A DNA stretch of 59,702 nucleotides, from contig CAYYNL010000002.1 of NCBI GenBank assembly GCA_964472925.1, positions 1-59,702 of the forward strand. Direction: 5' to 3'. Positions within the stretch are counted from its first letter, which is position 1; every line of letters begins with the position of its first letter. Below are positions 58,502-59,702 of this stretch, in pieces. Source of the stretch: an uncultured Fibrobacter sp. Its GTDB lineage: Bacteria; Fibrobacterota; Chitinivibrionia; Chitinivibrionales; Chitinispirillaceae. The notes beneath the pieces were generated by a model. It did no database searches. It saw nothing but the letters and a program-made list of their open reading frames with translations, and had not been told where the DNA came from. The translations under genes and the position numbers were made by a program.

Positions 58502-59702
58502 ATGGGAAAACCGGCAGCACGAATGGGAAATTTGACAAGTCATGGCGGAACCATAGTAACAGGCTCTTCCAATGTATTTTTCAATGGAATGCCCGCCGCA
58601 AACGCACTATCAAAACATGTTTGCCCGATGGTCACACCCGGAACGCCGCCTGTTCCACATGTTGGCATGCTTGCAGTGCCTAAGGGTGCATTGACAGTTC
58701 TTATCAACGGAGTACCAGCAATTGTATCGGGTGATATGTTTCTCTGCATGGGCCCTCCTGCCACAGTCGTTCTTGGAAGTTTTAATATACTTATCGGTAT
58801 GAACGGAAACGGAGGGAATGGAGGAGGTGGCAGTAGTGCAAGCCAGATGGCAATGGTATGTGCATTACAGACAGGCAAAATATCACCAGTTAAGGGAACC
58901 GAAACCTACCCGATAGACATTCAGTCGGCTGCATTGGTCATGCAGAAATACCACACACCAGAACAATTTGAGCTTGACCTGAAACTTCTTGATTCAATGG
59001 CAAAGCAACGGTTACAGGCAGAGAAAGGACAAAACGAGCGGGTCAAAATAACACTCAAGGACTTTGTCGAGATATTTGAAGAAATTGAAAGAGAACAGGG
59101 TTATGAAGCAGCCCGTCACTATTCATCGGTTTACATCAACTATGACCGTCTGATGGCAATCGCTAAATCGTTTACAGATGGCCTCGACACCAACCCGGAC
59201 AATGACCCTAATATCATGCCGACAAGGTTCATGCTTCTTTATGGAGCAGATGATTCAAAGCTCAGGGTAATTGACAATCATCCGGATAATTTTGAAAATG
59301 CGCCTGAACATGAAATCAACATTACAAACCTGCGCAAAGGCTTGCGATTTCTGGGCTACAATATAGATGAGAACGGGCCCTATGATGACAAACTGTGGAT
59401 GGCTCATGCACAATACATGAATCGTTTGGTCGGATGGCATTCGAAGACAGGATCTAAACACATTGTAGAAGAAGGCGAAAGCCTTGGTGCAATCGCACGT
59501 GTGTACGGTCTGCCAACTTGGAAATACCTTTATCAAATCAACAAGGAAAAAATCGGTGATAACCCCGATTTACTGGAAAAAGGGATCGAACTGCAAATAC
59601 CACAATGGAACAGTACATCGGGTAACAAAAAAATAACTGAAAAAGGCGCGGATCCTGCCTATTATGCGCATGGAAGCCGGTATAGGTATCCGTGGGTACC
59701 AT
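58502..59702 (+). CDS. PAAR domain protein with C-terminal extension (Gly-rich linker, PG-binding-like segment, LysM); 3'-partial, likely specialised T6SS effector
   Basis: Not in the ORF track because it has no stop. Frame is open from ATG 58502 (GGGGAGG 7 nt upstream) to the window end (400 codons). PAAR repeats: PAARMGNLTSHGG, GMPAANALSKHVCP, GVPAIVSGDMFLC. LysM: HIVEEGESLGAIARVYGLPTWKYLYQINK...GIELQIP. Confidence 0.85.
   Translation, partial: MGKPAARMGNLTSHGGTIVTGSSNVFFNGMPAANALSKHVCPMVTPGTPPVPHVGMLAVPKGALTVLINGVPAIVSGDMFLCMGPPATVVLGSFNILIGMNGNGGNGGGGSSASQMAMVCALQTGKISPVKGTETYPIDIQSAALVMQKYHTPEQFELDLKLLDSMAKQRLQAEKGQNERVKITLKDFVEIFEEIEREQGYEAARHYSSVYINYDRLMAIAKSFTDGLDTNPDNDPNIMPTRFMLLYGADDSKLRVIDNHPDNFENAPEHEINITNLRKGLRFLGYNIDENGPYDDKLWMAHAQYMNRLVGWHSKTGSKHIVEEGESLGAIARVYGLPTWKYLYQINKEKIGDNPDLLEKGIELQIPQWNSTSGNKKITEKGADPAYYAHGSRYRYPWVP

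What the first reader, a model, noticed from the sequence alone, without database searches (positions are those of the whole stretch)
58502..59702. Unlisted open-ended ORF: PAAR fused to a Gly-rich linker, a PG-binding-like segment and LysM; orphan specialised effector candidate
Seen: a 400-codon frame is open from ATG 58502, which has a strong GGGGAGG RBS, to the window end, which is why the ORF track omits it. Residues 1-100 form a PAAR domain with three PAAR-like repeats. NGNGGNGGGGSS follows as a linker. ITNLRKGLRFLGYNIDENGPYDDKLWMAHAQYM resembles a PG_binding_1 repeat, and residues about 320-367 form a LysM motif. The protein continues beyond the window. Established: PAAR proteins cap the VgrG spike, and extended PAAR proteins carry toxin domains. 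LysM and PG_binding_1 bind peptidoglycan. Inference: this is a cell-wall-targeting T6SS effector whose catalytic domain, immunity gene and perhaps vgrG lie just downstream. It sits 9.5 kb from the structural locus with tol-pal in between, and its GC looks higher than that of the tss genes.
Basis: partly seen in the sequence, partly recalled or inferred. Interest (0 to 1): 0.7.

Follow-up and report, generated by a model that had tools for sequence, protein, structure and literature searches.

The report
PAAR spike tip with cargo-loading module
This is the start of a gene for the sharp tip of a bacterial injection weapon (type VI secretion), extended by a cell-wall-binding-type module that most likely holds a separately encoded toxin; it is a new variant of a known design rather than a new kind of system.

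Summary
The ORF is real. It runs from ATG 58502, which has a GGGGAGG RBS, to the window end, and it encodes a bona fide PAAR domain (66 bits). Full-length relatives are only about 471 aa. One of them is DNA-identical over the first 1055 nt of the gene. So about 71 residues are missing, not a large toxin domain. The rest of the protein is a compact, confidently modelled body (pLDDT 94) with three parts: a helical/loop domain with no detectable structural relative that ends in a PG_binding_1-like hairpin, a LysM domain, and a small beta-sandwich. The family is rare and almost confined to Fibrobacterota. The same body is attached to either PAAR or DUF4280. The LysM-tail half also occurs as a stand-alone gene, and it nearly always lies directly upstream of, or fused to, a large variable protein. 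In the window's clade that protein is a 577-aa amidohydrolase-fold protein (PF04909) followed by an exported ~445-aa lipoprotein. It is fused in-frame to the PAAR protein in three lineages. Best reading: a PAAR carrier whose LysM/PG_binding-like module loads a downstream periplasm-acting cargo effector. This is a new variant of a known kind, of moderate interest.

The parts
58486..58492 (+). Shine-Dalgarno-like GGGGAGG, 9 nt upstream of the ATG
   Evidence: Read directly from the sequence.
58502..59702 (+). Open-ended ORF: residues 1-400 of a PAAR-body protein that is about 471 aa in relatives
   Evidence: Translation has no stop. There are 441 homologues. Full-length ones are 464-477 aa. P0001 is 99% identical and 471 aa.
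58502..58801 (+). PAAR domain (residues 1-100)
   Evidence: Pfam PF05488 66.2 bits. Foldseek hits 4jiw, 4ku0 and 4jiv. PDB sequence hits 9rce SalCis10 at E 3e-35 and 8gra T6SS PAAR at E 3e-13.
58802..58837 (+). Gly/Asn-rich flexible linker (residues 101-112)
   Evidence: pLDDT below 50 only at residues 102-112 in the AF2 model.
58838..59176 (+). Helical part of the middle domain (residues 113-225). Residues 113-180 are variable. The conserved core runs from about residue 181 and contains E196, E202 and R205.
   Evidence: AF2 helices 113-225 with pLDDT 85-98. Conservation. No PDB or BFVD structural match.
59177..59305 (+). Loop-rich, most conserved core of the middle domain (residues 226-268): NDPNxMPTRFMLLYGADD ... 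HPD
   Evidence: Invariant N234, P236, M239, P240, D251 and near-invariant D235, N237, R242, H260, D262, H270 in 86 sequences. pLDDT 97-99 with little regular secondary structure.
59306..59425 (+). PG_binding_1-like helix-loop-helix (residues 269-308)
   Evidence: The family profile (positions 89-128) hits tandem PG_binding_1 proteins at their repeats. There are weak direct Pfam hits in 3 of 36 members.
59450..59605 (+). LysM domain (residues 317-368)
   Evidence: Pfam LysM is above its cut-off in relatives at the same columns. The AF2 model has the beta-alpha-alpha-beta pattern. There are local matches to LysM of phage endolysins.
59606..59702 (+). Start of the conserved tail (GDExI..KG..P..Y..G.xYxYPWVP). 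In relatives it continues into a ~65-aa beta-sandwich that lies beyond the window.
   Evidence: Alignment consensus. AF2 strands at residues 398-460 of P0001.
59556..59557 (.). Mosaic breakpoint. The window is identical to contig L002 up to 59556 and about 79% identical from 59557 onward.
   Evidence: 0 mismatches in 1055 nt, then 30 in 146 nt. The tail is equally distant (78-79%) from L001, L002, L007 and L008.
38163..48976 (-). T6SS core cluster: tssM, tssG, tssF, tssE, hcp, tssC, tssB, tssA. This is the machine the PAAR tip presumably serves.
   Evidence: Pfam hits of 38-432 bits, the weakest being IcmF_C at 38.1 against a cut-off of 26.7. All are above their cut-offs.

Best explanation
The ORF encodes a type VI secretion PAAR spike-tip protein. 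Its C-terminal extension is most likely a cargo-carrying or loading module rather than a toxin.

After a flexible Gly-rich linker comes one compact body with three parts. The first is a helical/loop 'middle' domain of unknown fold that ends in a PG_binding_1-like hairpin. The second is a LysM domain. The third is a small beta-sandwich.

The middle domain travels with the spike-tip domain, which is either PAAR or DUF4280. The LysM-tail half travels with the cargo. It is fused to the PAAR protein, as here, or it is a stand-alone gene placed directly in front of the cargo gene.

In the window's clade the cargo is a ~577-aa amidohydrolase-fold (PF04909, TIM-barrel metal hydrolase) protein with no signal peptide. 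It is encoded 4-9 nt downstream. It is followed by an exported ~445-aa lipoprotein that serves as immunity, so the effector should act in the target's periplasm.

What is shown: the domain composition, the compact fold, the modular shuffling, the gene order, the in-frame fusions, and the signal peptides.

What is inferred: (a) the body physically holds the cargo on the spike, by analogy with the LysM-dependent VgrG-effector binding demonstrated in PMC10673891; (b) the LysM and PG_binding-like parts may also bind the prey cell wall; (c) the amidohydrolase-fold protein is toxic; (d) the same cargo gene follows in the window's own genome.
For: PAAR is confirmed. Relatives end at about 471 aa.

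The body alone models as a single unit with pLDDT 94.3 and pTM 0.86.

The same body is attached to DUF4280 instead of PAAR in P0103 and P0106 (Pfam-confirmed) and in eight further relatives carrying precomputed PF14107.

The LysM-tail module is fused to, or directly followed by, a large ORF in 23 of 30 evaluable cases. All 8 evaluable PAAR-middle genes that lack it have a separate LysM-tail gene within 3 kb downstream.

The downstream proteins fall into at least 3 unrelated families. This is typical of polymorphic cargo.

In the clade with at least 70% identity, the amidohydrolase-fold gene follows in L001, L002 (fragment), L008, L041 and both P0003 contigs. It is fused in-frame in L009. It is a decayed remnant in L042. 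In-frame fusions also occur in the distant L019 and L032 and in P0199, P0202 and P0226.

The cargo family is PF04909 throughout, with 211 members. Conserved DGHxH, H, H and D motifs are visible in the sequences.

The partner of about 420-446 aa always follows it and has a lipobox or signal, whereas the hydrolase has none. It is tandemly amplified four-fold in L009, with a fifth, divergent member.

VgrG and DUF2169 lie next to family members in L023, L027, L030, L031 and L005. A T6SS core is in the window.

Literature: LysM and PG_binding_1 recur in vgrG loci in the same three configurations, and LysM mediates VgrG-effector binding (PMC10673891).
Against: No interaction was tested. The loading role rests on gene order, fusions and analogy.

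The middle domain has a strikingly conserved polar constellation (N234, D235, N237, R242, D251, H260, D262, H270) in a loop-rich region. This could be an active or metal site.

Seven of 30 LysM-tail modules have no large downstream ORF, although one of the seven carries a decayed remnant.

The window's 3' end is a different allele from its otherwise identical relative, and no extension was found. What follows in this genome is therefore unknown.

No vgrG, clpV or tssJ/K/L is in the window.

The amidohydrolase assignment rests on Pfam scores just above threshold (28.3 against 26.4 bits) and on conserved metal-ligand-like motifs. PDB sequence hits are not significant.
Confidence: 0.6

Rival explanations
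1. The PAAR protein is itself the effector. The middle domain would be a cell-wall (or chitin) enzyme of a new fold, positioned on its substrate by the PG_binding_1-like and LysM modules. The downstream genes would be additional, independent effectors.
For: A cluster of invariant polar residues sits in a loop-rich, very confidently modelled region. It is flanked by two glycan-binding-type modules. LysM and PG_binding_1 commonly accompany cell-wall hydrolases (established knowledge). The domain has no structural match, so a new catalytic fold is not excluded.
Against: No catalytic family is detected by Pfam, NCBIfam, PDB sequence search or Foldseek. No conserved exported immunity-like gene accompanies the PAAR gene. 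Loci with no partner (L004, L013, L042) have nothing suitable downstream, and the first downstream gene differs between loci. The LysM-tail half separates from the middle domain and tracks the cargo gene instead.
Confidence: 0.2
2. One reading: in the window's own genome the ORF continues as one long specialised effector (PAAR-body-hydrolase, about 1040 aa), as in L009.
For: In-frame fusions exist in the same clade (L009, 70% identity; P0202) and in two distant lineages. The window carries a 3' allele that differs from all sampled relatives, so its end is unknown.
Against: Seven of the eight evaluable contigs in the clade with at least 70% identity have a stop at residue 471-473 (L001, L002, L008, L041, both P0003 contigs, L042). 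Only L009 is fused. The relative that is identical over the first 1055 nt of the gene has the stop and a new ATG.
Confidence: 0.12
3. The protein tips an extracellular contractile injection system (eCIS) or a phage-tail-like particle rather than the T6SS. Its LysM would be the baseplate-type LysM of such particles.
For: The closest solved relative of the PAAR domain is the eCIS tip SalCis10, at E 3e-35 against 3e-13 for a T6SS PAAR. LysM proteins are core eCIS and phage baseplate parts (PMC10673891).
Against: A T6SS core including tssM and tssA lies 9.5 kb away. Relatives sit next to ~730-aa VgrG genes and the T6SS adaptor family DUF2169. No eCIS-type sheath, Baseplate_J or DUF4255 genes appear among the annotated neighbours of any locus. 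Few PAAR structures are solved, so the ranking among them is weak evidence.
Confidence: 0.05

Closest known systems
LysM / PG_binding_1 'effector-discrimination' domains of vgrG loci (PMC10673891, Commun Biol 2023)
   Same: LysM and PG_binding_1-type modules occur in the same three configurations: stand-alone gene, fused to a spike component, and fused to the N-terminus of a toxin. They lie directly upstream of variable toxins. The proposed role is loading the cognate effector onto the spike.
   Different: Here the spike component is PAAR or DUF4280, not VgrG. LysM is embedded in a larger conserved body with an unknown-fold domain and a beta-sandwich. The cargo is not a Lyz-like, NlpD or NlpC/P60 enzyme but an amidohydrolase-fold protein or large unannotated proteins. 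The phylum is Fibrobacterota.
Extended ('evolved' or specialised) PAAR proteins (Shneider et al. 2013; PAAR survey PMC8651086)
   Same: An N-terminal PAAR cone is followed by a linker and a C-terminal extension. Toxin and immunity genes are encoded at or just after the PAAR gene.
   Different: The extension in the window-type protein contains no recognisable toxin. The toxin candidate is a separate gene, fused only in some lineages. LysM and peptidoglycan-binding extensions are not mentioned in the 2021 survey.
PAAR/VgrG extensions with transthyretin-like (TTR) adaptor domains, and adaptor families DUF2169 / DUF4123 / DUF1795
   Same: A non-toxic module links a cargo effector to the spike. A small beta-sandwich sits at the C-terminus. 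DUF2169 genes occur in some of these loci.
   Different: The TTR assignment of the beta-sandwich was not established: Foldseek gives only low-probability Ig-like hits. The middle domain has no counterpart in those adaptors.
VgrG-LysM-HetC and LysM + M23 / NlpC-P60 / lysozyme cargo effectors of Acinetobacter (PMC6838775)
   Same: LysM is combined with T6SS spike proteins and with periplasm-acting effectors.
   Different: In those proteins LysM accompanies a recognisable cell-wall hydrolase in the same polypeptide. Here none is detectable in the PAAR protein.

Membership tests
PAAR (PF05488) spike-tip proteins | Profile match above the curated threshold, with the three PAAR repeats | tested here: met
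   66.2 bits against a cut-off of 27, in 3 stretches.
PAAR (PF05488) spike-tip proteins | Conical beta-structure like solved PAAR proteins | tested here: met
   Foldseek hits 4jiw (target-normalised TM-score 0.75, E 2.4e-4), 4ku0 and 4jiv.
PAAR (PF05488) spike-tip proteins | Binds the tip of a VgrG trimer of the same organism | not testable with these tools
   There is no vgrG in the window. VgrG is adjacent in the distant relatives L023, L027, L030 and L031.
LysM (PF01476) | Profile match above the curated threshold | tested here: inconclusive
   The window ORF scores 12.1 bits against 20.9. The same columns score 26.3 bits in P0016 and 24.7-37.8 bits in the distant relatives P0140, P0143, P0151 and P0154.
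LysM (PF01476) | Beta-alpha-alpha-beta fold | tested here: met
   AF2 gives strand 319-321, helices 328-334 and 340-346, and strand 363-365. There are local matches to LysM of phage endolysins with probability 0.84-1.0.
LysM (PF01476) | Binds GlcNAc-containing glycans | not testable with these tools
   This needs a binding assay.
PG_binding_1 (PF01471) | Profile match above the curated threshold | tested here: not met
   No hit on the window protein. Three of 36 family members have sub-threshold hits, best E 0.0034.
PG_binding_1 (PF01471) | Detectable homology to genuine PG_binding_1 repeats | tested here: met
   The family profile hits 5 tandem PG_binding_1 proteins at their repeats, library-wide E 4e-7 to 3.5e-4. 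The match covers Pfam model positions of about 3-46 of 57, so it is partial.
Specialised (toxin-fused) PAAR effector | A toxin domain in the same polypeptide as PAAR | tested here: not met
   No toxin or enzyme domain is found in residues 1-471. The feature is met in the orthologous fusions L009, L019 and L032. The window's own 3' end is unknown.
LysM-type effector-loading module of T6SS spike loci (PMC10673891) | Occurs stand-alone, fused to a spike component and fused to the toxin N-terminus, directly upstream of variable toxins | tested here: met
   Six stand-alone LysM-tail genes. PAAR or DUF4280 fusions. Three lineages with PAAR-body-hydrolase fusions. 23 of 30 are followed by or fused to a large ORF.
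LysM-type effector-loading module of T6SS spike loci (PMC10673891) | Required for physical binding of the effector to the spike | not testable with these tools
   This needs co-IP or AF-multimer.
T6SS periplasmic effector-immunity pair (the downstream amidohydrolase-fold protein and lipoprotein) | Effector without a signal peptide, immediately followed by an exported cognate protein. The pair is conserved as a cassette. | tested here: met
   The pairing is conserved in L001, L009, L019, L027, L041 and L043-L045. Lipobox or signal sequences are on the partners, none on the hydrolase. The pair lies outside the window.
T6SS periplasmic effector-immunity pair (the downstream amidohydrolase-fold protein and lipoprotein) | Toxicity, and its neutralisation by the partner | not testable with these tools
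   This needs an expression assay.
eCIS tip protein (Afp10/Cis10) | Encoded in or with an eCIS cluster (Phage_sheath_1, Baseplate_J, DUF4255) | tested here: not met
   None are in the window or among the annotated neighbours of the related loci. T6SS genes are found instead.

The most novel reading that the evidence does not exclude
The body may be a previously unrecognised two-piece docking system for T6SS cargo. A new-fold 'socket' domain (the middle domain, with its invariant N/D/H cluster) stays permanently on the PAAR or DUF4280 tip. A LysM-plus-beta-sandwich 'plug' travels with each polymorphic toxin. Toxins could then be exchanged by recombination at the plug, and the breakpoint seen at 59556/59557 inside the LysM region would mark such an exchange. 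The cargo it loads, an amidohydrolase-fold protein, would be a new class of periplasm-acting T6SS effector.
Probability: 0.3. Interest if true: 0.6.

Novelty: new variant of a known kind. Interest (0 to 1): 0.4.

Why it matters
How cargo toxins are matched to the right spike component is an open question for type VI secretion.

This family offers a natural experiment. The same module is found fused to the PAAR tip, split into a separate gene, or fused through into the toxin, and it is paired with at least three unrelated cargo families. That makes the loading hypothesis for LysM/PG_binding-type domains testable on PAAR rather than VgrG.

The family also points to two uncharacterised items. One is a confidently folded ~200-residue domain with no structural relative. 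The other is an amidohydrolase-fold effector candidate with a large lipoprotein immunity.

It is one of the few looks at T6SS weaponry in Fibrobacterota, a phylum of fibre- and chitin-degrading bacteria. The design principle itself, a PAAR carrier with a downstream effector-immunity pair, is already well known.

Tried and rejected
1. Whole-protein and body-only fold searches against the PDB and BFVD. Only PAAR and short LysM matches appeared, and nothing for the middle domain. AlphaFold DB was not available.

2. Pfam, NCBIfam and PDB profile searches of the body found no enzymatic family.

3. Recovering the window's continuation. An exact 38-mer from the window end gave no hit in metagenome contigs. 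The genome-contig scan found relatives of at most 79% identity, so the source genome is not there. The near-identical contig L002 switches allele 146 nt before the window end.

4. I looked for a conserved immunity gene next to the PAAR gene. There is none. The first downstream genes are not homologous across loci.

5. The eCIS reading was considered and set aside. It was suggested by the SalCis10 hit, but the neighbouring genes are T6SS genes.

6. The amidohydrolase-fold partner gave only non-significant PDB sequence hits to ACMSD, and no NCBIfam hit. Its substrate stays unknown.

7. The ORF-less 1.45 kb upstream has no Rfam family, no tRNA and no protein remnants matching neighbouring genes.

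8. I first thought the orphan hydrolase partners lacked export signals. Corrected upstream starts restored them in 3 of 4 cases.
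Full report
**1. The observation**

The frame that starts at ATG 58502 is open for 400 codons to the last base of the window. GGGGAGG lies at 58486-58492, 9 nt upstream of the ATG.

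Pfam finds PAAR_motif at 66.2 bits, against a cut-off of 27, in three stretches. LysM is found only sub-threshold, at 12.1 bits against 20.9. PG_binding_1 is not found. NCBIfam adds only a weak T6SS_PAAR_dom match.

A T6SS core cluster occupies 38163-48976 on the minus strand: tssM, tssG, tssF, tssE, hcp, tssC, tssB, tssA. It is followed by an FHA-SLT fusion gene and a tol-pal operon at 51347-55795. Next come an APH-type kinase gene and a 1.45-kb stretch without ORFs.

GC content is 0.453 for the ORF, 0.352 for the tss cluster, 0.429 for tol-pal and 0.388 for the whole window. The ORF is indeed richer in GC than the tss genes. However, the tss cluster is the compositional outlier, not the ORF.

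**2. How long the protein is**

A search of 5.8 billion proteins returns 441 relatives. The full-length ones are 464-477 aa. P0001 is 99% identical and 471 aa. Only about 71 residues are therefore missing from the window.

An AF2 model of P0001 has mean pLDDT 88.9. It shows the PAAR cone, a disordered linker at residues 102-112, and then a structured body that ends in a small beta-sandwich at residues 398-460. Relatives have no room for a large toxin domain in this polypeptide.

**3. What the body is**

Modelled alone, residues 113-471 give pLDDT 94.3 and pTM 0.86, so the body is one compact unit. Its parts, in order, are:

- Helices at residues 113-225.
- A loop-rich segment at residues 226-268 that is the most conserved part of the family. 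N234, P236, M239, P240 and D251 are invariant. D235, N237, R242, H260, D262 and H270 are nearly invariant in 86 sequences.
- Two helices at residues 274-308.
- A beta-alpha-alpha-beta unit at residues 319-365.
- Further short helices, followed by the beta-sandwich.

Foldseek against the PDB finds only PAAR proteins for the full model and nothing for the body, with best E 0.23. Against BFVD, the only high-probability matches are 55-65-column alignments to the LysM modules of phage endolysins.

LysM is above the Pfam threshold at the same alignment columns in relatives: P0016 at 26.3 bits, and the distant relatives P0140, P0143, P0151 and P0154 at 24.7-37.8 bits.

A profile of the middle-domain core (alignment A3) was searched against 1.84 billion representative proteins. 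Beyond the family itself, it hit five proteins only through profile positions 89-128, in 3-6 tandem stretches each. Those five are genuine tandem PG_binding_1 proteins, and the stretches coincide with their Pfam repeats. PG_binding_1 is also the only Pfam family that recurs when 36 members are scanned one by one, in 3 of 36 with best E 0.0034.

The rest of the middle domain has no detectable relative. The domain is rare, with 101 representative clusters among 1.84 billion proteins.

**4. Distribution and modularity**

Loci recovered from one genome per species are nearly all MAGs of Fibrobacterota: Fibrobacter, Fibrobacteraceae, Chitinispirillaceae and Chitinivibrionales. Remote relatives with the middle domain plus LysM occur in Gynuella and Reinekea.

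The body is attached to DUF4280 instead of PAAR in a subgroup. A third subgroup (P0078, P0080) keeps PAAR and the middle domain but has a different beta-rich C-terminus.

I scanned ORFs of all loci with HMMs built for each module. The results were:

- 34 genes carry the LysM-tail module, and 30 can be evaluated.
- In 23 of those 30, the module is fused to at least 300 further residues, or is followed within 300 nt by an ORF of at least 500 aa or one that runs off the contig.
- Six are stand-alone LysM-tail genes of 148-195 aa (L005, L022, L023, L026, L028, L035). Every one lies immediately upstream of a large gene.
- All 8 PAAR-middle genes that lack the module and have at least 2 kb of contig left carry a separate LysM-tail gene within 3 kb downstream.

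So the middle domain stays with the tip domain, and the LysM-tail stays with the downstream gene. The two halves occur either fused or split.

**5. The downstream genes**

The downstream genes fall into at least three unrelated families.

In the window's clade (at least 70% identity) the partner is a 564-579-aa protein:

- It is a separate gene 4-9 nt after the stop in L001, L008, L041 and both P0003 contigs.
- A 27-aa start of it is present in L002, 81% identical to the L001 gene.
- It is fused in-frame in L009, giving a 1045-aa protein. The junction reads straight through where L001, L002 and L008 have TAA plus a new ATG.
- It is a decayed remnant in L042.

In-frame fusions also exist in the distant lineages L019 and L032, and in P0199, P0202 and P0226.

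The family has 211 members, and nearly all carry PF04909 (Amidohydro_2). Sources name them 'TIM-barrel fold metal-dependent hydrolase'. D-[GS]-H-x-H, further His residues and a GTDWY motif are conserved.

This protein is always followed by a protein of about 405-468 aa from one family. That holds even in loci without any PAAR gene (HMM E-values 1e-115 to 1e-175). The partner is tandemly amplified in L009, with four close copies and one divergent copy. It carries a lipobox or signal sequence, in three loci only after correction of the called start. The hydrolase has none. An effector without a signal next to an exported partner is the usual signature of a periplasm-acting T6SS effector-immunity pair. 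That interpretation rests on established knowledge and was not tested here.

In L023, L027, L030 and L031 a ~730-824-aa VgrG (Phage_GPD at 250 bits in L023) lies 1-3 kb upstream of the family member. DUF2169 genes occur in L005, L030 and L031.

**6. Mechanism**

The most economical reading is a PAAR carrier. The tip domain mounts on VgrG. The body, tethered by a flexible linker, holds the separately encoded cargo. In some lineages the cargo has been fused on.

This matches the published finding that LysM and PG_binding_1 domains recur in vgrG loci as stand-alone genes, as C-terminal VgrG fusions or as N-terminal toxin fusions. The same work showed that LysM is needed for VgrG-effector binding in two systems (PMC10673891).

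The glycan-binding character of LysM and PG_binding_1 may additionally keep the tip and its cargo at the prey cell wall. The data cannot separate these two roles.

The main rival is that the middle domain is itself an enzyme of a new fold. The invariant polar cluster keeps this possible. Two observations weaken it: no conserved immunity-like neighbour accompanies the PAAR gene, and the LysM-tail tracks the cargo rather than the middle domain.

An eCIS affiliation was suggested because the best solved relative of the PAAR domain is the eCIS tip SalCis10. The genes around family members do not support it.

**7. What remains unknown for this window**

The window and L002 match at 209 of 210 upstream bases and at all of the first 1055 bases of the gene. 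From 59557 to the end, 30 of 146 bases differ. That tail is 78-79% identical to each of L001, L002, L007 and L008.

This is a recombination-type mosaic with its breakpoint inside the LysM region. It may also explain why the assembly ends here, though that is inference. The gene that follows in this particular genome could therefore be a different allele or a different cargo.

An exact-match scan for the window's last 38 nt found nothing. The window contains no second copy of any module and no hydrolase or lipoprotein gene. It also contains no vgrG, clpV or tssJ/K/L.

**8. Comparison and novelty**

PAAR membership is met. LysM is met at family level. PG_binding_1 membership by Pfam's own threshold is not met, but partial homology is. 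The 'specialised PAAR effector' definition, a toxin in the same chain, is not met for the window-type protein, although it is met for fused orthologues. The configuration criteria of the LysM-type loading domains are met. The binding criterion could not be tested.

The 2021 PAAR survey does not mention LysM or peptidoglycan-binding extensions. LysM on VgrG and in cargo effectors is well known.

I therefore rate this a new variant of a known kind. The design is a familiar one, a spike-borne carrier with a downstream effector-immunity pair. It is built here from an undescribed PAAR-borne body in a little-studied phylum. It has an unknown-fold domain, and its effector candidate has an amidohydrolase fold, a fold I did not find among described T6SS effectors. 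That last point comes from my own knowledge and the papers read here, not from an exhaustive search.

Interest is moderate at 0.4.

Noticed in passing
window 59556-59557 (compared with L002): There is a sharp mosaic breakpoint. The window is identical to contig L002 over 209 of 210 upstream bases and the first 1055 nt of the gene. It then shows 30 mismatches in the last 146 nt. That tail is about 79% identical to every close relative. This suggests recombination within the LysM region and may be why the contig ends here.
   Followed up: partly
window 57048-58501: A 1.45-kb stretch without ORFs (GC 0.373) lies between the APH kinase gene and the PAAR gene. It contains a perfect 16-bp hairpin at 58184-58218 and a second hairpin at 58244-58261. 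The scan reads both as terminator-like on the minus strand, although no minus-strand gene is nearby. There is no Rfam hit and no tRNA.
   Followed up: partly
window 57564-57627; L011 6244-6306: A 64-nt intergenic stretch is 84% identical to an intergenic stretch in a Fibrobacter MAG contig that also carries a family member. Its nature is unknown.
   Followed up: no
window 49744-51237 (+): The gene divergent from tssA encodes an FHA domain fused to an SLT lytic transglycosylase. It may combine T6SS Fha-type regulation with local cell-wall opening for the machine.
   Followed up: no
window 38163-48976: The T6SS cluster holds only tssA, B, C, hcp, tssE, F, G and M. No clpV, vgrG or tssJ/K/L is found anywhere in the window. 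The cluster's GC (0.352) is well below that of flanking housekeeping genes (0.42-0.43).
   Followed up: partly
L009 13138-20897: After the fused PAAR-body-hydrolase gene come four near-identical ~440-aa lipoprotein genes and one divergent 499-aa member of the same family. This looks like an immunity-gene array.
   Followed up: partly
L036 11129-20759; L037 1139-6376: In the gammaproteobacterial relatives (Gynuella, Reinekea), the large cargo gene is followed by short ORFs that repeat only its C-terminal 80-170 residues (51-86% identity). These resemble the orphan toxin cassettes of polymorphic toxin loci.
   Followed up: no
P0110, P0088 (L031 13264-15032): Permuted architectures exist without PAAR: LysM-tail followed by the middle domain, and LysM-tail / middle / LysM-tail. 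The two halves of the body therefore recombine in both orders.
   Followed up: no
window 58502-58801: Among solved structures, the PAAR domain is far closer in sequence to the eCIS tip SalCis10 (9rce, E 3e-35) than to a T6SS PAAR (8gra, E 3e-13). The genomic context is nevertheless T6SS.
   Followed up: partly
L043-L045: The amidohydrolase-fold gene and its exported partner also occur as orphan two-gene cassettes, with no PAAR, middle-domain or LysM-tail module in the 5 kb upstream that was scanned. The pair is thus a mobile unit independent of the carrier.
   Followed up: partly
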